This document shows, piece after piece, positions 6,331 to 36,574 of a stretch of 56,520 nucleotides of DNA. How positions within the stretch are numbered: position 1 is the first letter of the stretch; each line of letters opens with the position of its first letter. The notes below the pieces were generated by a model, which was given only the letters and a program-made list of their open reading frames with translations, was not told the origin of the DNA and made no database searches. This stretch comes from Chiloscyllium plagiosum (taxonomy: Eukaryota). The stretch covers positions 6,454,894 through 6,511,413 of the forward strand of contig NC_057719.1 in assembly GCF_004010195.1 (NCBI RefSeq). The letters run 5' to 3'. Both the position numbers and the translations under genes were made by a program.

Positions 6331-7319
6331 CCAAATTTCTCATGGGGGTTAGTGAGGAGGACTCTACAGGGCCTAAGGTTAAGCCAATGGCTAAGGGTTG
6401 GTCTGCTCTAGTCTTACCACCTGAATTTTTCACAGCTGTTTCAATACAACTGGGCCACTTCAAGGATAAAAAGTCAACCACCATGGCATGGGCCTGGAGT
6501 CACATAGGCTAGGTAAGGGGCAGATGTCCTTTCCTAAAAGCTATATGTGAATGATTTCACATCAAGACAAATCAGTAGAAATGGGTAAAACTAGTTTTTA
6601 ACAACAGCTCCGCGTTGTCACCATGACTGAGCGACCGACAAAACTGAATTTAAAATCCCCAGCTCCACGTGTCGGGGAATTGAACTTGATGTCCCAGGAA
6701 GAGGGCAGGCCTCAGGGTAACATTGCCCACCAGAGAAACATTGCTACACTGGGGCGGGGAAAGGAGGATTTCAGTCTCCCTTCCTGCAAAAAAAGCAGAA
6801 AGTCCAACTGCCAAGGGACAGCTTTCACAGAGAGAAAAAAACCAACGGAATCATTTGATCAGTAAGAGATTAGATAAGTGGAGGCTCACAGATAACTTAT
6901 TGTGCTCAATGAGCTGAAGCTTTACCAGCTCCTTGACAAGATCGTTTTGGAGTGATTAGGCCTTGTTTTCGGAAGCAAATTGCCACCGTTGCTATGGTGA
7001 ATCACAAGGCCTGAGGGCTTGGTACGCTACATTCCCCATTAGTACTCTTGACTTCAACTGCGATTGAATGAATGGTTTCGGTCACTGAGCAGCTTGTCTA
7101 GCGTAAAGCACCATGATATCTGGGAGCTGTCCTCATGGCCGTCAAATCTTTAATGAGTTCTGATGAAGAATCTGCGTGCATAATATCAAACTACTTTTAC
7201 CCATTTCTTATTGATCCAGTTTGATGTCTATTTGGGATTTGTTCCAGCCTCTTTTTCTCCAGCTCAAAGAAGAATCAAGAACAATACGCACAGCAACAGG
7301 CCCTGCAAGCCTGTGCTGA

Positions 7320-27374: not shown

Positions 27375-28800
27375 TGTAGCAACTGGGGTGAGGTCAGCCA
27401 GGTGGACCTCATGGAATATGAGTCACTGGATTGGGGCAGTTAACCTGGTCCAATCAGGGGGCCCTGGCTGACAGGTATAAACAGGAGTGTTACCCAGGAG
27501 CCTGTGCCCCACAACCTGAGCCGTCTCCGGAATTTTAGTTTTGTCCCTTTTAAGGATGTAAAAAAGGAGGGCCCTGTATCGACTGCTGCTCCACACCGTC
27601 CACCTCTTCTCCCTCATCCACCGTCCGGACACGCCTTGGCGTGCCCATTTGCCACCGGGCGGTGGGGATCCCCAGTGGAGGGCTCTCTACGCGGGAGTCC
27701 TCCCCCTTTCTCTCGGGGATCTGGGGTGGAGGGTGCCGCACGTAGCAGTCCCCTGCAACCGCAGATTGCGGTGGTTCACGGACTCCCAGCCCAACTGCTT
27801 GTTCTGTGGCACTGTGGAGTCCGTGGACCANNNNNNNNNNNNNNNNNNNNNNNNNNNNNNNNNNNNNNNNNNNNNNNNNNNNNNNNNNNNNNNNNNNNNN
27901 NNNNNNNNNNNNNNNNNNNNNNNNNNNNNNNNNNNNNNNNNNNNNNNNNNNNNNNNNNNNNNNNNNNNNNNNNNNNNNNNNNTTCACTGTTTTGGTCACA
28001 CAGCATTGCCCTTTGATGTGAAGGGCACTGCTTGTCACTGGCCACTCGGGTGTTTCCTTTCTTCCTGGTGGTGGAAACTGAATAAAGATTCGTGCACCTT
28101 GTGTCTCTCACTGTGTCCCACACCTGCAAACACACAACATGGGGGCTGGGGAAAAAATAAGCACTACCGCAGTTAGGCAAAGAAGTCCATGGGCCAGATG
28201 GTGCATCGGGGTGGGTCAAAGCCTGATGGTATGTAGGGGCAGACCGAGAGCCAGTAGGCGGGTAGCCATCCTCAACGCTGTCACCCCGGGCGGGTACCGG
28301 GGCGAGCTGTCCTAGAGATGGTCGAAAGATGTGACAGAGCAGACCGAGAACTGGAAAGGGCATGGGGTGGACTGAGAGCCGGAAGGTGGGTAGGGGCGGG
28401 CTGCCTTAGAGTGGCCGGAAGGTGGGAGGGGCAGGGGCTTGCTGGGTCTGTATTGTATGCACTGTTTGTTATGTAATTGGATTGTCATTTTACGTACAAA
28501 TGTCATTGTTACTGTTTGTAATGATCGAAACTGGGATTTGAGGCTTGTCCTCATCTCCCTGTAAACTGGTTGAACGTTAGGGTTTGGGGCCTGGCTTCGC
28601 CATTCCTCTCCCGTGTAAAATTGCTGTTTGTCTGTATACAGCTGTAAATGTTAATAATTAATAAATAAACAAACAAACAGGAGTGTCAGGGGTTCTGCTC
28701 ACTGTAGAAGCCGGCTCTGAGCTAGCTGGGTCAGCGTTATGTACCGTGCACACGTAAATAATATGGTTGATGGGATACCAGCCTTTGTGGCGTTATTTCA
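27375..28800 (+). mobile_element. ~230-bp LTR-like repeat (27375-27490 and 28687-28800) split by an insertion
   Basis: Starts TGTAGC and ends TTTCA; CCAAT at 27450-27454 and TATAAA at 27476-27481; homologous copy at ~36275-36440. Confidence 0.6.
27491..28674 (+). mobile_element. 5'-truncated Tx1-clade (L1 superfamily) LINE insertion
   Basis: RPDTPWRAHL...PQWRALYAGVLPLSLGDLGWRVPHVAVPCNRRL...CLFCGTVESVDH (C-terminal zinc-knuckle region); 12-bp direct repeat AAACAGGAGTGT at 27479-27490 and 28675-28686; gap at 27831-27982. Confidence 0.8.
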
Positions 28801-28829
28801 GCTATTAGCGATAGAGGGCTAATCTGGAA

Positions 28830-29070
28830 TCCAAGCAGAAAGTGATGGAGAAACTCAGCAAGGCCTGGCAGCATCTGAAGTGAAACAGAGTTAATGTTTT
28901 GAGTTTGGTCTGAATCTTGTTCAGAATATTCAGATTTAAACTTCAGTTCTGACGCAGAGTTCAAAACCTTAAATATATTTCTCTCTCCACTGATGCTGCC
29001 AGACCTGTGGAGTCTCTCCTGCCCTTTTCTGCTTTTATTTCAGATCTCCAGCATCTGCCGTACTTTGTTT
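28830..29070. mobile_element. Diverged palindromic Penelope-derived-type repeat
   Basis: Inverted arms CTGGCAGCATC.../GATGCTGCCAGACCTG. Similar copies at ~32890-33830 (split by CR1), 37900-38110 and 55825-55970. Confidence 0.55.
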
Positions 29071-29749
29071 TTATGATGCAGTTGGACAGGGCCTGGTCTG
29101 GTTAGGATCAAGACGTTTGGGAACAACAGGCAGAATGTCTACGTTTCTTTACAAAGCTGGAACAGACCAACGTTTCATGAGTAAGGGGATCAAGGGTCAT
29201 GGGTGAAAGGCAGGAGGGTGAAGTTGAGGATTATTGGATCAGCCATAATCTCATTGAATGGCAGAGCTGATGGGCTGAACGGCCTACTTCTATGTCTCAC
29301 CATCCTACAGTAAAATGTTGCTTAGTTGGTCAATTGGCCTTTGGATGTTCCTGAGGATTACAATGCTGTAGGCTCCTCAAGCAACTCACTAGGATGCGCA
29401 ACACCCAGTGTGGGATCCTACCAATGACTGATCCTGACCACACCTCTTCCCTCACCTCACCCACCATGCACAGGAAGGGAATTGCTAGGTAGTTGGAAAC
29501 TGTGCTGACTTTCCCCCATATCCACCATGCAGGGCACATTAAGTACAGGAGGAGGTCATTCAGCCCCTTGGACCACCTCTCCTAGAGAACTAGAAATTGG
29601 CTGATCCCAACTCCGTTTTCTCTGACTGAACTGGTGTCTGTCATTCTCAGTCTGCAGCATTCCAAATGAGTCAGTATCTCCAGGCATCAGGGGAAGAGGA
29701 TGCCGTCTCAGTGTGAAAAGCTGGAAGCAGCTGTCCATCTATTACAGCT

Positions 29750-29845
29750 GAGAGTGTGTGGTGCTGGAAAAGCACAGCAGGTCATGCAGCCACGGAGAAG
29801 CAGGAGAATCGACGTTTCAGGTAAGAGCCCTTCATCAGGATCCAT
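29750..29845 (-). mobile_element. Single arm of the hammerhead-bearing Penelope-derived family
   Basis: Minus strand reads CCTGATGAAGGGCTCTTACCTGAAACGTCGATTC (core 29811-29838). Confidence 0.65.
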
Positions 29846-30189
29846 CACAGCTGCTGTTTCCAGTAGCCAACTACAACACTTTAAATTTATGTACCAACCT
29901 CAATGGAAAATTATCAGAGTGTTTAAGAAATGTGATAACTTTGACACTGAGTCACATAAGGAGATTGTAGGACTCACCACCAAAACCTTAAGAAGGAGGA
30001 AAGGGAGATAGAGAGCCCAAGAGGGGTATGGAGGAGATCCCAGAACGTGGGATCCTGGCAACTGAAGGGCACAGCCACTGACAGTTTCTAATCCCAATTG
30101 GAAAAGCTCGAGTTGCCAAAATTAGACAAGCATAGATATCTCAAAGTTTGTATGATTCAATCACCCAGACCAGGGGGACTACACTCCAG

Positions 30190-31725
30190 GGTTCTGAGGA
30201 AATAGCTGAACAAATTGTAGAGGCATTGATGGTGATCTTTCAGGCATCATTGGATTCAGGGTGGGTCCCAGAGGACTGGAAAATGGCTAATGTAACAGCC
30301 CTGATTAAGAAGGGAGGGAAGCAGAAGACAGGAGTACGGGCCAGTTAGCCTGGTGTTGATCATTGGTAAGACTTTAGAGCCCATTACTAAAGATGAGGTT
30401 GTGGAGGACTTGGAAGCACATGGTGAAATAGAGTTGACTCAGCATGGCTTCACCGAGGGAAGGTAATGCCTGATAAATCTGTTAGAATTATTTGAGAAGC
30501 TAACGAGCATGTTAAACAAAGCAGAGCCAGTGAATGTGATCTATTTGGATTTCCAGAAGGCCTTTGACAAGATGCTGCACAGGAGGCTGCTAAAAAAGAT
30601 AAGGCCCCATGGTGTTAGGAGCAAGGTACTGGCATGGATAGAGGATTGGCTGACTGGCAGAAGGCAGGGGGTGGGGATAAAGGAGTGTTTTTTTTCAGGA
30701 TGGCATCCAGGAACTAGTGGAGTTCCGCAGGGATAGGTGTTGGGTTTACAACAATTCACTTATTCATTAACAATCTTGATGAAGGAACTGAAGGCATTGT
30801 TGCTAAGTTTGCAGTCGATACAAAGATAGTTGGACGGTCAGGTACCGTTGAGGAAGCAGGCAGACCACAGAAGGACTTGGACAGGCTGGGAGAGTGAGTA
30901 TAGAAATGACCGATGGAATACAATGTGGGAAAGTGGGAGGTTGTACACCTTAATAGGAAGAATAGAGGCATAAACTAATTTCCAAACAGGAAAAGGCTTC
31001 AGAAATCTGAAGCGCAAAGGAACTTGTGAGTCTGAGCTCAGGATATTCTTCAGGTTAACATGCAGGTTCAGTTTGGTAGTTAGGAAGGTAAATGCAATGT
31101 TAGCATTCATTAAAGAGGGCGAGAACATAAACACAGGGATGAGCTGCTGGGACTGGACAAAGCTCTGGTGAGACTGAATTTGGAATACTGTGAGCAACTT
31201 TGGGCCCCGTATCTAAGGAAAGATGTGCTGCCATTGTAAAAGGTCCGGAGGAAGTTTATCAGAATGATCCCAGGGATGAAGGGTTTGTCACATGAGGAGT
31301 AGCTGAGGACTCTGGGTCCATACTCAATTGAGTTTAGAAGGATGGGGGAGGGAGGCGTCTGATTGAAATACCAAGCGGCTTGGATAGAGTGGACATGGAG
31401 AAGATATTTCCACCAATAGGACAGATTAGGGCCCAAGAGCACAGCCTCAGAGTGAAGGGCTGACCCTTTAGAACAGAGATGAGGAGGAACATCTTCAGCT
31501 AGAGGGTGATGAGTCCGTGGAACTCATTGCCACAGAGGGCTGTGGGGGCCAAGGCATTGAGTGTAATTAAGACAGAGTTAGGTAGGTTCTTGACTGGTTA
31601 GGGGATCATGGATTATGTAGAGAAGGCAGGGGAAATGGTGATGACAAACGTATCAGTCACCATTGAATGGCGAAGCAGACTCGATGGGCTGAATGGCCTG
31701 ATTCTGCTCCTATATCTTATGGTTT
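30190..31725 (+). mobile_element. CR1 LINE RT to 3' end (decayed)
   Basis: VPEDWKMANVTALIKKG, VIYLDFQKAFDK, SGVPQG, 3' tail TCTTATG. Confidence 0.88.
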
Positions 31726-32172
31726 TATGGTGTCGAAGGAGGAGGTCACAGGGATAGGGAGGAGTCCATGAAAGTCACTCCCTGGGCTTAAACTTGACAA
31801 AATGCCAATCCTAGGAACATTTTGCATTCCGTCTGTTTTATCCTGAGCGGTATCAGACCAACTCAAAGCCAGCTTGTGTTTAACTGGACTGTCTTTTCTA
31901 AGCACTGAAGGTAAGGCATTGGAGAAAGCAATGATGTCGATGTTACACCTAACCGTGTTGAAATTAACAAGGCTTCTATCGTTGTCTTTAAGGCTTCGGA
32001 GATTACCCAGCAGTTTGGAACCATAATACATCCAAAACCAGCAACACAGGGAAGGTAGAAAATTTAATACATAAAAGCCACCCAGGGTTACTCCTTTGAA
32101 GCTTTAAAGTGGCTATGTTCGAATGATACGCTGATGGCGTGAGGTCAATTAAGATGGGACGATGTTCATGTG

Positions 32173-32718
32173 AGTGTACAAAGTCGAAAATCACACGACA
32201 TTGGGTTACACCCCAACAAATTTATTTGAAACCGCAACCATTCGGAGCACTGCTCCTAGGCAGCTAGTGAGAGAGAATACATCGGACCCAGAATTTATAG
32301 TAAAAGATCAAAGGGTCATACAACTGATGCAAGTGCATTTAACAGACCTAGATGGCTGTTAAATCTTTAATCATTTAGAACATTGAGGCTTGTTCAATAT
32401 ATTTGTATTGGGGGTACAATTTGTATTGGGGTAAATGTAGGGGAATGGGTCTGGGTGGGTTGCCCTTCGGAGGGTGGGTGTGGACTTGTTGGGCCGAAGG
32501 GCCTGTTTCCATACTGTAAGTAATCTAAACTAATCTAATCATATTTATATAAATTGTATGACACTTTGATCTTCTACTATAAATTCTGTGTTTGATGGAT
32601 CCTCTCTCACTAGCTGCCTGAAGAAGGAACAGTGCTCTGAAAGCTTGTGATTTCAAATAACTGGGATCATAACCCGGTGTTGTGTGATTTTTGACTTTGT
32701 TCACCCCACCACGTCATA
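32173..32718. mobile_element. Palindromic Penelope-pLTR-derived element with an HE1 3' fragment at its centre (~32430-32540)
   Basis: Arms homologous to 14722-15350; hammerhead-like core at 32618-32646. Confidence 0.7.
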
Positions 32719-32733
32719 TGGAGTGTAAACAGT

Positions 32734-32774
<41 letters not shown>
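32734..32774 (+). repeat. Poly-G run (41 nt)
   Basis: Directly visible. Confidence 0.9.
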
Positions 32775-32775
<1 letters not shown>

Positions 32776-32959
32776 AAGAAGAGCTGTAAATTCTGTTCTG
32801 TAACTTCCACGTTACAACGTCACCATCAGTGTTTCTATTCCCGGCCTGTATGTGAAAGTATATCCTTCTGGTGCAAGCAACTAACGCAGGATTAGAAACA
32901 GAAACAGAAGTTGCTGCAAAAGCTCAGCAGGTCTGGCAGCAACACTGGAGAGAAAGCAT

Positions 32960-33703
32960 AAGACCATAAGACATAGGAATGGAAGTAAGGCCATTTGGCC
33001 CATCGAGTCAACTCCACCATTCAATCATGGCTAATGGGCACTTCAACTCCACTTACCCGCACTCTCCCCGTAGCCCTTAATTCCTTGCGAGATCAAGAAT
33101 TTATCAATCTCTGCCTTGAAGACATTTAACGTCCCGGCCTCCACTGCACTTTGTGGCAATGAATTCCACAGGCCCACCACTCTCTGGCTGAGGAAATGTC
33201 TCCTCATTTCCATTCTAAATTGATCCCCTCTAATTCTAACACTGTGTCCACTGGTCGTAGTCTCCCCGACTAAAGGCAACAAATTCCCAGTGTCCACCCT
33301 TTCTAAGCCATGCATTATCTTGTAAGTTTCTATTAGATCTCCCCTCAACCTTCTAAACTCTAATGAATACAATCCCAGGATCCTCAGCCGTTCATCATAT
33401 GTTAGGCCTAACATTCCAGCATTCATCCGTGTGAATCTCTGCTGGACACGCCCCAGTGCCAGTATGTCCTTCCTGAGGTGTGGGGCCCAAAATTGGATAC
33501 AATATTCTAAATGAGGCCTACCTAGAGCTTTATAAAGTCTCAGTAGCACATCGCTGCTTTTATATTCCAACCCTCTTGAGATAAATGACAACATTACACT
33601 CACTTTCTTAACCACGGACTCAACCTGCAAGTTAACCTTTAGAGAATCCTGGACTAGCACTCCCAGATCCCTTTGTACTTCGGCTTTATGAATTTTCTCA
33701 CCG
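32960..33703 (-). mobile_element. Young CR1 3' fragment
   Basis: Open 205-aa frame at 33043-33660 (LYKALGRPHLEYCIQFWAP...GYGESAGKWS). Confidence 0.92.
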
Positions 33704-33904
33704 GTGAGCTTTCAGGTGACCTGAAACATTAACTCTGATTTCTCTCCACAGGTGCTGCCAAACCTGTTCAACGTTCCCAGCAATTTCTCTTTCTGACTTC
33801 CAGCAAACGGACTGCTTTCAGTTTTTAACCCATGGGATTAGGACAAATGTCGCCTTGAGGTGGAGGGACAACAGGAAGCATGACTGCATCTTACGTTCAC
33901 CACG

Positions 33905-34330
33905 GTTGGAGGGTTTGAGCTACAGGGAGATGTTGAACAGGCTAGGGCTGTTTTCCCTAGAGGCTGAGGGGAGACCTTAAAGAGGTTTATAAAATCATGA
34001 GGGGCATGGATAGGGCAAGGTCTTTTCCCTGGGGTGAGGGAGTCCAGGACATAGGTTTAGGGTGAGAGGGGAAAGATATAAAAGAGACCTAAGGGGCAAC
34101 TTTTTCACTCAGAGGGTGGTACATATATGGAATGAGCTGCCAGAGGAAGTGGTGGGGACTAGGACAGTTACAACATTTAAAAGGCATGTGGATGGTTATA
34201 TGAATAGGAAGGGTTTGGAGGGATATGAGCCAGCTGCTGGCAAATGAGACGAGATTAGGTTAGGATATCTGGTCGGCATGGACGGGTTGGACCGAAGGGT
34301 CCGTTACCATGTTGTACATCTCTATGACTG
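33905..34330 (+). mobile_element. CR1 3' fragment
   Basis: RGERYKRDLRGNFFTQRVVHIWNELP, plus tail. Confidence 0.85.
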
Positions 34331-34514
34331 TTTACGAGCATGTACAGGAGCCAGGAGTAGGCCATTCAGCCTGTTGAGACTATGCTGATCTGATCTCTCC
34401 AGATCGCCTTTCGCATCCCCCCCCCCGGCCTTTGCGCCTTGATCAGCTGACAATCTGAACTCAGCTGACTCTCCTGCTTTACCAACATCTTCCTCTTGCT
34501 CCCATGTCATCACT

Positions 34515-34740
34515 CACAGCTCAGTGGGCAGCTGTCTCACCTCTGAGCCGGAGATTTCCACCAGAGATTTCAGTGTATGACCCATAAACAGTGCAGTACC
34601 GAGCGTGTGCTACAGGAGTGCCACTCTGTCTGAGGTAATCCCCTTCAGATGAGACGTTGAAACGTGGTTGACCATGAAGATCCTGGAGGCACTATTTGAA
34701 GAAGGATCATCAAAATGTGCCCAATGTCCTAGCTAGTATC
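34515..34740 (+). mobile_element. Old Deu-domain-type (SacSINE1-like) SINE remnant
   Basis: CAGTGCAGTACCGAG...TTCAGATGAGACGTTGAAAC...GCACTATTTGAAGAAG; related remnants at ~8100-8400 (+) and ~3050-3230 (-). Confidence 0.45.
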
Positions 34741-34834
34741 TTCAGCCAATCTGGGCTGGACAGAGTAGACAGGGAGAATCTGCTCTCCATTTGTAAATGA
34801 GAAAAGAACAAGAGGGTAAAGATCTAAAGAGAGG

Positions 34835-35112
34835 GTATAGGTTTAGGGTGGGAGAGGAAACATTTAAGAAGGGCCTGAGGAATAACCTTTTCACACAGTG
34901 GGTGGTACGTGTATGTAATGAGCTGCCAGAGGAAGTGGTGGAGGCTGGTACAATTGCAACATTTAAAATGCATCTGGATGGGTATATGGATAGGAAGGGT
35001 TTGGAGGGATATGGGCCGGGTGGGACTAGATCAGACTGGGACATCTGGTCAGTGCAGACCAGTTGGACCGAAGGGTGTTTCCGTGCTATATGACTCAATC
35101 TCTATGATTCTA
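34835..35112 (+). mobile_element. CR1 3' fragment
   Basis: NELPEEVVEAGTIATFK, plus tail. Confidence 0.85.
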
Positions 35113-35850
35113 TGGTCATTAACACATTGCTACTTGAGGGAGCTTGTTCTGTGAAATTAGCAGCTGCATTTCCTCCATTACAACAATGACAACAAATCAA
35201 ATTTACTTTATTGACTTTAAAGCACTTTGGAATGTCATCAGGTGGTAAAAATAGCTATCTGAACATAAGTAGGCTGACGGATGATTTTATCAACATATTC
35301 AAGACATTTACACTGTTTTTTTTAATTACTCGTGAGTTTGAGGAGCTGATAGGACCTTCTTGCTTTTTTCATGGCAATGATTTAGCCAATCACAGTCAAC
35401 TTAGCAACAAACCAGCATTCTTTTCTCCGGTATAGAAATTGTTGTGATTGTTTAAAATTTGGCACTCTTGCATTTATCCTGATGTCTGCAACGTGGAAAT
35501 CTTGGGTACTGTTTCCCTCTTTTTAGCAATATTCGACTTCTGTACTACCAAGTGATGATTCAAGGTACTAAAAAGGTACAGATAGGGTAGAGAGAAACTG
35601 CTTTTGCTGCTTTGCAATCTGGAATTTGGGAAAACTAGAAGCAGACATTTCAGGAGTGAAGTTAGAAAACAATTCTTCATACAATGGACAATTGGTGGCA
35701 CTTCAATCAGTTATGTTAAAACTGAGATTGATAGAATGTTGAAATATCAACAGAAAATATTCAATGTAGGTCATTGACTGTGAGATCCTTAATTGGGGTT
35801 GTTAATCTGGGCCAATCAGGAAGCCCTAGCTGACCAATATAAACAGAGGA

Positions 35851-36210
35851 TTGATCACATAGCACTGCCCTTTGATGTGAAGGGCAGTGCTTGTCACTGG
35901 CCACCCGGGTGTTTTCCTAAAAAAAAGAAAAAAAAAAAAAATAAACAGAGGATTGATCACATACCACTGCCCTTTGATGTGAAGGGCAGTGTTTGTCACT
36001 GGCCACCCGGGTGTTTTCCTATCTTCCTGGTGGTGGAAATTGAATAAAGATTCGTGCACTTTGTCTTCCACTGTGTCTGCACACACACCATGGGTGCTGG
36101 GGATAAAATAAGCACTACCGCACTTAGGAAAAAAAAAGAAAAAAAATATATAAACAGAGGATGCCAAACTGGCCATCAACAGGTCGAGGCAGCGGGCCGT
36201 GGAGGGGGAG
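35851..36210 (+). mobile_element. Stacked 3'-end fragments of the same Tx1-clade LINE
   Basis: Two copies of the 3' UTR also seen at ~27990-28177, each with an A-rich tail and separated by ATAAACAGAGGA; then AKLAINRSRQRAVEG at 36163-36207. Confidence 0.75.
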
Positions 36211-36574
36211 TTATGTTAAAACTGAGATTGATAGAATGTTGAAATATCAACAGAAAATATTCAATGTAGGTCATTGACTATGAGATCCTTGATTGGGGTT
36301 GTTAATCTGGGCCAATCAGGAAGCCCTAGCTGACCAATATAAACAGGGGATACAGAGTCTCTTGACTGATTCCTAGCTGGTTGGTTATAGCCAGTGTACT
36401 GTGCACATGTAATGAAAGGGTGTCTTAATGATGGGATACTTGGAAGAAAACGAGGACTGCAGATATTGGAGGTCAGAGTCCAACACCAACTGCCTATGAG
36501 CAGTTAGTTTAGATATGCCTCTTCTTCAGAGAAAAGAACTAGTGATGAAGAAAAGTCACATCAATTCGAATTCA

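What the first reader, a model, noticed from the sequence alone, without database searches (positions are those of the whole stretch)
27375..36440. Candidate sequence-specific Tx1 LINE that targets the TATA box of an LTR-like repeat
Seen: two diverged copies of one host repeat (TTGGGG..TTAA.CTGG.CCAATCAGG..GCCCT.GCTGAC...TATAAACAG...TGTAC.GTGCACA.GTAA...GATGGGATAC) at 27.4/28.7 kb and 35.8/36.3 kb. Both carry insertions with the same 3' end (TGCCCTTTGATGTGAAGGGCA...AATAAAGATTCGTGCAC...AAGCACTACCGCA.TTAGG) at the same position. The duplicated target begins within TATAAACAG in both (AAACAGGAGTGT; ATAAACAGAGGA). The 5' truncation points and target sequences differ, so these look like independent events. 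Known: Tx1-clade LINEs include target-specific families, e.g. Xenopus Tx1L inserting into a DNA transposon and families targeting U2, 5S, tRNA arrays or microsatellites. Inference: this shark Tx1 family recognises the promoter of a dispersed LTR-like repeat, gaining a multicopy safe harbour and possibly a CCAAT/TATA promoter directly upstream. I cannot tell whether the family is already catalogued, and n=2 loci is a small sample.
Basis: partly seen in the sequence, partly recalled or inferred. Interest (0 to 1): 0.82.

Follow-up and report, generated by a model that had tools for sequence, protein, structure and literature searches.

The report
Tx1 LINE that targets LTR TATA-box
A jumping gene of the Tx1 family in this (apparently shark) genome inserts again and again at one exact spot, the TATA box in the terminal repeat of another jumping gene; target-choosing Tx1 elements are already known from frogs and crocodilians, so this is a well-supported new example of a known kind.

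Summary
Both loci are copies of one ~235-bp LTR family, each split at the same point, TAT|AAACAGGAGTGT|CAG, by 5'-truncated copies of one LINE with 12-13-bp target duplications.

The genome supports the reading:
- 6 of 28 independent LTR copies are filled at that site and 21 are empty.
- An exact-word count gives about 19% excess interruption.
- 18 of 39 sampled LINE loci sit in this site, always in the LTR's orientation, with at least 15 different 5' ends.
- 314 exact LINE-end/tail/target junctions exist, against 0 in the control.

The ORF2 is 45-47% identical to Xenopus Tx1 ORF2 and groups with it in a tree.

Specificity is strong but not absolute: 13 of 39 loci lie elsewhere, several with their own duplications. 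A second retroposon family uses the same site.

The kind is known. Kojima 2015 reports crocodilian Tx1 families inserted in LTR retrotransposons. This scan also noted the same stacking elsewhere in this genome (e1-7789243), without the enzyme family or the target's identity. Promoter capture is not shown.

The parts
27375..27490 (+). LTR copy A, 5' part (U3-like: CCAAT 27450-27454, TATAAA 27476-27481), ending in the left target duplication 27479-27490
   Evidence: 86% to an empty LTR copy, positions 21-136
27491..28178 (+). 5'-truncated Tx1 LINE copy: end of ORF2 with zinc knuckle (27491-27830), N gap (27831-27982), 3'UTR (27983-28178) ending in ...CGCAGTTAGG
   Evidence: 94% and 85% to the near-full-length copy L071; a near-identical duplicate on another contig (L009) bridges the gap
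28179..28674 (+). 3' part of a second, unrelated retroposon family ('Atail'), joined to the LINE copy without an intervening duplication
   Evidence: 2695 first-look candidates in the genome; it inserts alone at the same LTR site in L019 and L029
28675..28800 (+). Right target duplication (28675-28686) and LTR copy A, 3' part (R/U5-like, AATAA 28759-28763) to ...TTATTTCA
35765..35851 (+). LTR copy B, 5' part (CCAAT 35812-35816), ending in duplication copy 1 (35839-35851); part of the block 35710-35851 that is repeated downstream
35852..35940 (+). Insert 1: 68 nt of LINE 3'UTR (35852-35919) plus an A-rich tail
35941..35953 (+). Target duplication copy 2 (ATAAACAGAGGAT)
35954..36149 (+). Insert 2: 175 nt of LINE 3'UTR with the same 5' end as insert 1 (35954-36128, ending ...CGCACTTAGG) plus an A-rich tail
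36150..36162 (+). Target duplication copy 3
36163..36209 (+). 47-nt fragment of the end of LINE ORF2, no tail; it begins where the 'head' of full-length copies begins
36210..36351 (+). Repeat of 35710-35851 (97.9% identity) including the LTR 5' part and an uninterrupted target ATAAACAGGGGAT (36339-36351); origin unexplained
36352..36440 (+). LTR copy B, 3' part (to at least GATGGGATAC)

Best explanation
A young, abundant Tx1-clade LINE of about 7.3 kb (ORF1 region; ORF2 with APE endonuclease, reverse transcriptase and a C-terminal zinc knuckle; 3'UTR ending in a hairpin plus A-rich tail) integrates by target-primed reverse transcription. It strongly prefers one site in a ~235-bp LTR family. 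The bottom strand is nicked within the LTR's TATA box (TAT|AAAC on the top strand). The top strand is nicked 12-15 bp further on (after GGAGTGT, before CAGGGG). The result is a 12-15-bp duplication, a fixed orientation and mostly 5'-truncated copies. The choice of site is most likely made by the element's own endonuclease, as shown biochemically for its relative Tx1L of Xenopus. The many dispersed LTR copies serve as a harmless landing place. Shown here: the anatomy, the clade, the site, the occupancy and the independence of events. Inferred: that the endonuclease (rather than RNA pairing or chromatin) sets the site, that the TATAAA is a working TATA box, and any benefit to the LINE.
For: Site and duplication: junction tables; window. 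Occupancy: 6 of 28 independent LTR copies are filled at the site, 21 are empty and 1 is unclear. The exact 23-mer spanning the site occurs 989 times; 607 keep the next 3 LTR bases, against 748 that keep 3 bases on the upstream control side, which is about 19% excess interruption. On contig 1, 4 of 10 sites without the next LTR bases have an exact LINE end downstream on the same strand within 6.1 kb, against 0 of 17 uninterrupted sites. LINE side: 18 of 39 sampled loci are in the site and 1 more has LTR-type spacers. There are 314 exact LINE-end + 5-35 nt + AACAGGAGTGT junctions among 5424 exact LINE ends, with 0 in the reversed control. Orientation is the same in 26 of 26 site insertions. Independence: at least 15 different 5' ends abut the LTR; the duplications follow each LTR's own variant; in L008 the 5' LTR is empty and the 3' LTR is filled. 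Clade: Pfam RVT_1 plus weak Exo_endo_phos and zf-RVT; Xenopus Tx1 ORF2 at 616 bits and 47% and 45% over 665 aa, against 129 bits to human L1 ORF2p; an 8-row clade with Xenopus Tx1, SH-aLRT 100. Tx1L endonuclease is sequence-specific (PMC1950540, passages read).
Against: It is not strictly site-specific. 13 of 39 sampled loci have non-LTR flanks. L002, L043 and L046 have their own 11-15-bp duplications, and these begin with A-rich words like a generic L1-type T|AAA nick. The samples are the best-scoring hits, not random draws, and 7 of 39 loci could not be classed. The exact-junction share is only 314 of 5424 (5.8%), a lower bound because of exact matching. No endonuclease assay exists. The sequenced copy used for the clade (L071) is defective: it has frameshifts and a gap of about 50 aa in the RT. 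Units within one array share a 5' end, so stacked units are probably not all separate hits.
Confidence: 0.85

Rival explanations
1. The site is chosen mainly by the RNA, not the endonuclease. Copies resident in LTRs are transcribed through into the LTR's 3' part, and this LTR sequence at the RNA's 3' end pairs with nicked LTR DNA and guides priming, as proposed for some rDNA and telomere elements.
For: Read-through RNAs were substrates. L046 carries LINE end + A-run + 47 nt of LTR 3' part + tail, inside its own duplication at a non-LTR site. L031 has LTR 3' pieces of about 44, 84 and 99 nt followed by A-runs inside an array.
Against: Most 3' junctions read LINE end - A-rich tail - duplication, with no extra LTR sequence. 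Both nick positions are fixed to within 1-3 bp. A second family with an unrelated 3' end uses the same site. Read-through copies also landed outside LTRs (L046).
Confidence: 0.07
2. There is no special recognition. A generic L1-like T|AAA nicking preference, plus an open or bent TATA box of an active promoter, makes this LTR a hot spot.
For: Non-LTR targets begin with A-rich words after T or G, and the LTR nick TAT|AAAC fits that taste.
Against: The LTR family is a tiny share of a 3.56-Gb genome. The 2343 candidates times about 235 bp would be roughly 0.02%, my own rough estimate. Yet it holds 18 of 39 sampled loci, all at one position, although the LTR has other A/T-rich words such as AATAAA. 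The top-strand nick is fixed too. None of the non-LTR targets seen was a TATA box.
Confidence: 0.05
3. One or a few ancestral insertions were multiplied by the LTR element's own retrotransposition or by segmental duplication.
For: Locus A has a 99-100% identical duplicate on another contig (L009), so some copies are duplicates. Units within arrays share a 5' end.
Against: At least 15 different 5' ends abut the LTR. Duplications flank each insert and match the local LTR variant. 21 of 28 LTR copies are empty. In L008 the 5' LTR is empty and the 3' LTR is filled. Window loci A and B differ in LTR (79%), duplication and 5' end.
Confidence: 0.02
4. A partial rival that concerns only the stacks: tandem arrays grow mostly by local duplication (unequal exchange between the short duplications and then between units), not by repeated retrotransposition into the regenerated target.
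For: Units of one array share the 5' end and spacer: L073 five times, L005 five times, L003 four times, and L031. An array with its own spacer ATACACTCTGAGG exists at a non-LTR target (L006). Window inserts 1 and 2 share a private base change and similar tails.
Against: Arrays mix units with different 3' ends, tails, tiny pieces, the second family and full-length copies. The same 5' end could also recur through microhomology with a locus's own duplication.
Confidence: 0.4

Closest known systems
Tx1L of Xenopus laevis (archetype of the Tx1 clade; Swiss-Prot YTX2_XENLA = P0125)
   Same: The ORF2 is 45-47% identical over the endonuclease and RT and falls in the same starred clade. It is an APE-type LINE that lives inside another transposon at one site and in one orientation. 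Its endonuclease is known to nick its target specifically (PMC1950540, passages).
   Different: The target is a DNA transposon (Tx1D), not an LTR. Tx1L is described as stringent, whereas a third of the sampled copies here lie outside the target. The endonuclease hairpin loop whose tip reads RDGH in Tx1L is three residues shorter and reads PGVG in the copy examined (that copy is defective, so this is only a lead).
Tx1-8_Crp and Tx1-4_AMi (crocodilian Tx1 families), Kojima 2015, PMC4494074
   Same: [quoted passage not shown] The paper's criterion of more than 20% of flanks is met here.
   Different: They come from a different host class. The paper's main text gives no site within the LTR (its supplements were not read), so whether they also hit a TATA box is unknown to me. 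Relatedness to the present family was not tested because no sequences were on hand.
Tx1-Mar LINEs with SINEU-3 in crocodilians (same paper)
   Same: A LINE group and a short non-autonomous retroposon share one 16-bp target in a transposon. [quoted passage not shown] Transcription from the flanking target is discussed there too.
   Different: The target is a Mariner DNA transposon. Here the second family's nature (SINE or end of another LINE) is unresolved.
R2 and R1 of arthropods (rDNA-specific LINEs)
   Same: They live in a multicopy target, and R2 relies on co-transcription with the target (as cited in PMC4494074, passage).
   Different: R2 has a restriction-like endonuclease and is a different clade. 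Its target is a host gene, not another transposon.
Human L1
   Same: Same superfamily layout (APE, RT, C-terminal cysteine motif), A-rich tails, 5' truncation, 3' transduction and duplications of similar length.
   Different: Human L1 shows promiscuous TTTT/AA nicking and is a far weaker match (129 bits).

Membership tests
Tx1 clade of non-LTR retrotransposons | RT/ORF2 groups with the Tx1 archetype rather than with L1 or other clades | tested here: met
   Xenopus Tx1 ORF2 at 616 bits, 47%; 45% over 665 aa; human L1 ORF2p at 129 bits; quick IQ-TREE of 26 rows places the query in an 8-row clade with Xenopus Tx1 (SH-aLRT 100), apart from the clade holding a protein with an L1 ORF1 domain. There was no curated Repbase reference set.
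Tx1 clade of non-LTR retrotransposons | N-terminal APE-type endonuclease followed by RT in ORF2 | tested here: met
   RVT_1 at E 3.7e-19; Exo_endo_phos at E 2.2e-4 (21.5 bits, under the 24.5 cut-off); the endonuclease region aligns to Tx1 residues 47-240.
Tx1 clade of non-LTR retrotransposons | C-terminal cysteine/histidine motif in ORF2 | tested here: met
   zf-RVT at E 4.1e-5 (24.6 bits, under the 27.5 cut-off). The motif C..C...H....C is visible in the translation.
Tx1 clade of non-LTR retrotransposons | ORF1 of L1/Tx1 type | tested here: inconclusive
   no Pfam family on the three upstream open frames of L071. That copy is broken.
Target-specific LINE (criterion of Kojima 2015: one kind of sequence in more than 20% of flanks) | More than 20% of copies flanked by the same repeat | tested here: met
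   18 of 39 sampled loci. The sample is the best-scoring hits, not random draws.
Stringent site-specific LINE (R2, Tx1L style: nearly all copies in the target) | Copies outside the target are rare | tested here: not met
   13 of 39 loci have non-LTR flanks, and at least three have their own duplications.
Stringent site-specific LINE (R2, Tx1L style) | Endonuclease nicks the target specifically in vitro | not testable with these tools
   Needs protein from an intact copy and target oligonucleotides.
LTR of an LTR retrotransposon (the target) | Two direct copies flank an interior coding for RT and integrase; TG..CA ends; polypurine tract before the 3' copy | tested here: met
   (L008): two copies about 1 kb apart around an RT-like frame. 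RVT_1 at E 4.9e-7; weak integrase core upstream of a 3' copy in L005 (E 1.1e-5, under the cut-off). Purine runs lie before TGTA... in L005, L008, L020 and L034. The superfamily (Gypsy, BEL or retrovirus-like) is not resolved (one search gave one unnamed hit).
LTR of an LTR retrotransposon (the target) | The TATAAA acts as the promoter's TATA box | not testable with these tools
   Inferred from layout only: CCAAT lies about 20 bp upstream and AATAAA about 85 bp downstream.

The most novel reading that the evidence does not exclude
The LINE does not merely park in the LTR; it lives off the LTR's transcription unit. Full-length copies begin with a 'head' followed by 50-100 nt that resemble the LTR sequence just downstream of the target site (one LTR subfamily only, z 6-7). 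The longest heads start right after the target duplication. Head 5' ends seen across loci (positions 6862, 6864 twice, 6866, 6884, 6899, 6930, 6945, 6950 of the full-length copy) are compatible with repeated initiation some 15-30 nt inside the insert, but random 5' truncation would fit as well. On this reading the master copies were, and perhaps are, transcribed from the LTR's CCAAT/TATA promoter. By landing 14 bp after the TATA box each new full-length copy acquires a Pol II promoter and at the same time decapitates the LTR element. That would make it a promoter-homing LINE that parasitises another retroelement.
Probability: 0.25. Interest if true: 0.7.

Novelty: new member of a known kind. 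Interest (0 to 1): 0.45.

Why it matters
It is a natural, high-copy example of an APE-type LINE endonuclease retargeted to a new 14-bp site: thousands of ends, and roughly a fifth of a large LTR family occupied. Its closest characterised relative, Tx1L, has an endonuclease that has been purified and assayed and whose DNA-reading loop has been grafted onto human L1 endonuclease. Comparing the two, which are 45% identical with a different hairpin loop, could show which residues set the target. That question bears on engineering LINE-type enzymes for site-directed insertion. It also documents transposon-in-transposon ecology in a cartilaginous-fish genome: a safe harbour, possible silencing of LTR promoters, a second family sharing the site, and array growth. 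It does not open a new category.

Tried and rejected
The LINE-side sample therefore stays at 39 best-scoring loci.
- RNA: one lay of reads. Run X22 laid nothing, so it is no test. In X21 (poly(A) single-cell library, same species label) reads pile on the last ~400 nt of the LINE with about 20:1 strand bias and with A-runs beyond the element's end. Genomic A-tails and internal priming can give the same picture, and a 3'-biased library cannot show starts, so there is no verdict on promoter use.
- Contigs of runs under two organism labels (X13, X5) show LINE end - tail - target word - next unit joints. They are 'RNA?' by guess only.
- Protein Atlas gave only generic names.
- The last protein search, with the LTR element's RT peptide, gave one unnamed hit, so the LTR superfamily is unresolved.
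- Pfam found nothing on the ORF1-region frames.
- tblastn of the ORF2 end against the long 'Atail' copy L029 found nothing, so the second family's parent is unknown.
- Christensen et al. 2000 (PMC85248) is not held. Tx1L biochemistry is cited through PMC1950540.
- Rejected: the idea that ~1.1-kb copies are a unit-length mini-element. The 12 loci were a biased set, and one search shows graded 5' ends up to about 7.3 kb.
- Rejected: a large target duplication as the cause of the 142-bp repeat in locus B. The 47-nt fragment has no tail at the expected side.


Full report
OBSERVATION. The two loci are as described. At 27375-27490 and 28675-28800 lie the two halves of one repeat, split by an insert of 1184 bp (27491-28674). 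The insert is bounded by a perfect 12-bp duplication, AAACAGGAGTGT (27479-27490 and 28675-28686). At 35765-35851 and 36352-36440 lies a diverged copy of the same repeat; the 5' parts are 79% alike over 77 bp. Here the word ATAAACAGAGGAT occurs three times (35839, 35941, 36150). It brackets two inserts with the same 5' end (35852-35940 and 35954-36149). The inserts of the two loci share a segment that is 85% identical over 187 bp.

- In locus A the shared segment is followed by 496 bp of a different retroposon before the right duplication, and an N gap hides part of the LINE.
- In locus B a 47-nt ORF2 fragment without a tail (36163-36209) is followed by a 142-bp repeat (36210-36351) of 35710-35851, which I cannot explain.
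- Younger copies elsewhere run about 29 nt beyond ...TTAGG and complete a terminal hairpin.

THE HOST REPEAT IS A REAL LTR. A search with its 3' half found 2343 first-look candidates. Twenty-one uninterrupted copies show a unit of about 235 bp running from TGTAGTG... to ...TTATTTCA. It carries CCAAT, then TATAAA about 20 bp later, then AATAAA about 85 bp further on. In L008 two copies in direct orientation flank about 1 kb that codes for a reverse-transcriptase fragment (RVT_1 at E 4.9e-7). Purine runs precede the 3' copies. A weak integrase-core match lies upstream of the 3' copy in L005. The superfamily is unresolved. That the TATAAA is the working TATA box is inferred from this layout only.

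THE INSERT IS A Tx1-CLADE LINE. Copies have graded 5' ends up to about 7.3 kb (L071, L073). ORF2 carries an APE endonuclease, RVT_1 and a C-terminal zinc motif. The best named relative is the archetype, Xenopus laevis Tx1 ORF2: 616 bits and 47% identity, and 45% over 665 residues. Human L1 ORF2p scores 129 bits. In a quick maximum-likelihood tree of 26 rows the query pairs with a Heterodontus protein (SH-aLRT 99). The pair sits inside an 8-row clade (100) with Xenopus Tx1, a sturgeon protein and sea-turtle proteins, apart from a clade that includes a protein with an L1 ORF1 domain. Curated clade references were not available. The copy used is defective.

GENOME-WIDE TEST, FROM THE LTR SIDE.
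- Of 30 loci returned for the LTR 3' half, one is the window and one is a 99-100% duplicate of locus A on another contig. Of the other 28, 21 are empty, 6 are filled at the same point (L019, L023, L028, L029, L031, L035) and 1 lacks a recognisable 5' half.
- The exact 23-mer across the site occurs 989 times (reversed control 0). 607 keep the next three LTR bases, whereas 748 keep three bases on the upstream control side. That is about 19% excess interruption right after ...GGAGTGT.
- On contig 1, within the stretch covered by the listed LINE ends, 4 of 10 sites lacking the next LTR bases have an exact LINE end downstream on the same strand within 6.1 kb, against 0 of 17 uninterrupted sites.
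- Three more such sites on contig 1 are explained by entries.

GENOME-WIDE TEST, FROM THE LINE SIDE. Three samples of best-scoring hits were examined: 7 loci for the 3' end, 12 for the ORF2 end and 20 for a more 5' segment (three of them extended). This gives 39 loci in all.
- 18 abut the LTR at the site.
- 1 has LTR-type spacers only.
- 13 have non-LTR flanks.
- 7 could not be classed because of short contigs, N gaps or array ends not reached.

Exact junctions of LINE end + 5-35 nt + AACAGGAGTGT number 314 (control 0) among 5424 exact LINE ends. This is a lower bound, since only 11 of 21 empty LTRs carry that exact word. All 26 site insertions seen have the LTR's orientation. The 5' junction always follows ...A(T)AAACAGGAGTGT(C). 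The 3' junction is an A-rich tail running into (AT)AAACAGGAGTGTCAG. The duplication is 12-15 bp.

INDEPENDENT EVENTS. At least 15 different 5' truncation points abut the LTR. Each duplication follows its own LTR's variant, for example ...GGAATCT...GCAGTGTG...GAGGAT. Most LTR copies are empty. In L008 the 5' LTR is empty while the 3' LTR is filled. Spread of a single insertion by the LTR element is therefore excluded for the family. It applies only to the near-identical duplicate of locus A (L009).

PREFERENCE, NOT STRICT SPECIFICITY. L002, L043 and L046 lie in unrelated sequence with their own 11-15-bp duplications (AAACCAAGATAGT, GAGAATGCCAGTCAA, AAAATATGGTGAG). L046 also carries 47 nt of LTR 3' part between the LINE's tail and a second tail. 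L031 has LTR 3' pieces of about 44, 84 and 99 nt inside an array. These are 3' transductions. They show that LTR-resident copies were transcribed through into the LTR and reinserted.

A SECOND FAMILY. The 496 bp at 28179-28674 belong to another abundant retroposon with 2695 first-look candidates. Its A/T-rich 3' end is unrelated to the LINE's. It inserts alone at the same site with 14-bp duplications (L019, L029). 42 of 418 exact 3' words are followed within 15-45 nt by AACAGGAG (control 0). Its parent and coding capacity are unknown.

ARRAYS. Of the first 100 exact LINE ends listed, 69 lie in 25 clusters of 2-7 ends within about 5 kb, and 31 are single. Units of one array share a 5' end and a spacer. 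An array also exists at a non-LTR target with its own spacer (L006). Local duplication therefore probably contributes alongside reinsertion. The three duplications in locus B should not be counted as three proven hits.

FULL-LENGTH STRUCTURE AND THE PROMOTER IDEA. All five near-full-length copies seen begin with a 'head'. The head is a second copy of the end of ORF2 plus the first part of the 3'UTR, fused at one fixed point to the 5'UTR. The first 50-100 nt of that 5'UTR resemble the LTR sequence just downstream of the target site, but only in one LTR subfamily. For L008, L045 and L050 the local scores are 37-48 against a shuffle maximum of 33-36, z 6-7. For the 21 majority-type LTRs z is 0-4.2. 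The longest heads start directly after the duplication, including the window's 47-nt fragment. This fits transcription of master copies from the LTR promoter but does not show it. The RNA reads available are 3'-biased and gave no verdict.

MECHANISM. Target-primed reverse transcription with two fixed nicks is what the junctions show directly. That the endonuclease reads the site is inferred from the clade. Tx1L endonuclease nicks its own target almost exclusively, and a hairpin loop with the tip RDGH is thought to read the DNA (PMC1950540, passages). In the copy examined here that loop is three residues shorter and reads PGVG.

WHAT IS KNOWN. Kojima 2015 (PMC4494074; abstract, passages and section 15 read) describes Tx1 families aimed at DNA transposons, microsatellites and snRNA genes. 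[quoted passage not shown] A search for Tx1 + shark + retrotransposon listed 6 papers, none on this by title or abstract start. Verdict: real, well supported, and a new member of a known kind. It has some unexplained anatomy (head, LTR-like 5'UTR, array growth) that could make it more interesting.

Noticed in passing
L009 (another contig of the same genome) against window 27598-28800: A 99-100% identical copy of locus A (LINE fragment, second retroposon, LTR 3' part) lies on a different contig. It is either a recent segmental duplication or assembly redundancy. It has no N gap and shows about 580 bp where the window has 152 N.
   Followed up: partly
window 36163-36351: A 47-nt fragment of the end of LINE ORF2 without a tail is followed by a 142-bp repeat of 35710-35851 (97.9% identity), which includes flank and LTR 5' part. 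It does not fit a simple insertion, a large target duplication or a deletion.
   Followed up: partly
L071 1684-2100; L048, L067, L042, L073: All five near-full-length LINE copies start with a 'head' that duplicates about 240-300 nt of the element's own ORF2 end and 3'UTR, fused at one fixed point to the 5'UTR. Short array pieces, including window insert 1 (35852-35919), end at that same point.
   Followed up: partly
L071 1966-2070 against the LTR 3' parts of L008, L045, L050: The start of the LINE 5'UTR resembles the LTR region just 3' of the target site in one LTR subfamily: shared TGAGAGCT.G, GATCAGTGT and the 12-mer CAAGGACTCTCC in the same order; z 6-7.
   Followed up: partly
window 28179-28674; L019, L029, L004, L006: A second abundant retroposon family (2695 first-look candidates) with about 100-bp internal repeats and an A/T-rich end uses the same 14-bp LTR site and also forms arrays. 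Whether it is a SINE-like partner or the tail of another LINE is open.
   Followed up: partly
L067 (reverse strand, about 350-660 of the oriented locus): An unrelated short repeat of about 300 bp (SINE-like by look, not tested) sits inside a LINE array between A-rich spacers. It may have been inserted by the same machinery or independently.
   Followed up: no
L039 6150-7700, run X21: In a poly(A) single-cell RNA run under the same species label, reads matching at 90% or more pile on the last ~400 nt of the LINE (depth up to about 480 against under 1 in its 5' part) with about 20:1 strand bias and A-runs beyond the element's end. This is compatible with expression of family members, but also with internal priming in host transcripts.
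   Followed up: partly
tables 5 and 5c (runs X13 and X5, two different coded organism labels): Contigs from runs under two organism labels contain LINE end - tail - ATAAACAGGAGTGT - next LINE unit joints. The LINE/LTR-site association therefore seems shared by more than one related species.
   Followed up: no
window 35640-35760: Just upstream of LTR copy B lies a diverged piece of yet another repeat. It is included in the 142-bp block that is duplicated at 36210.
   Followed up: no
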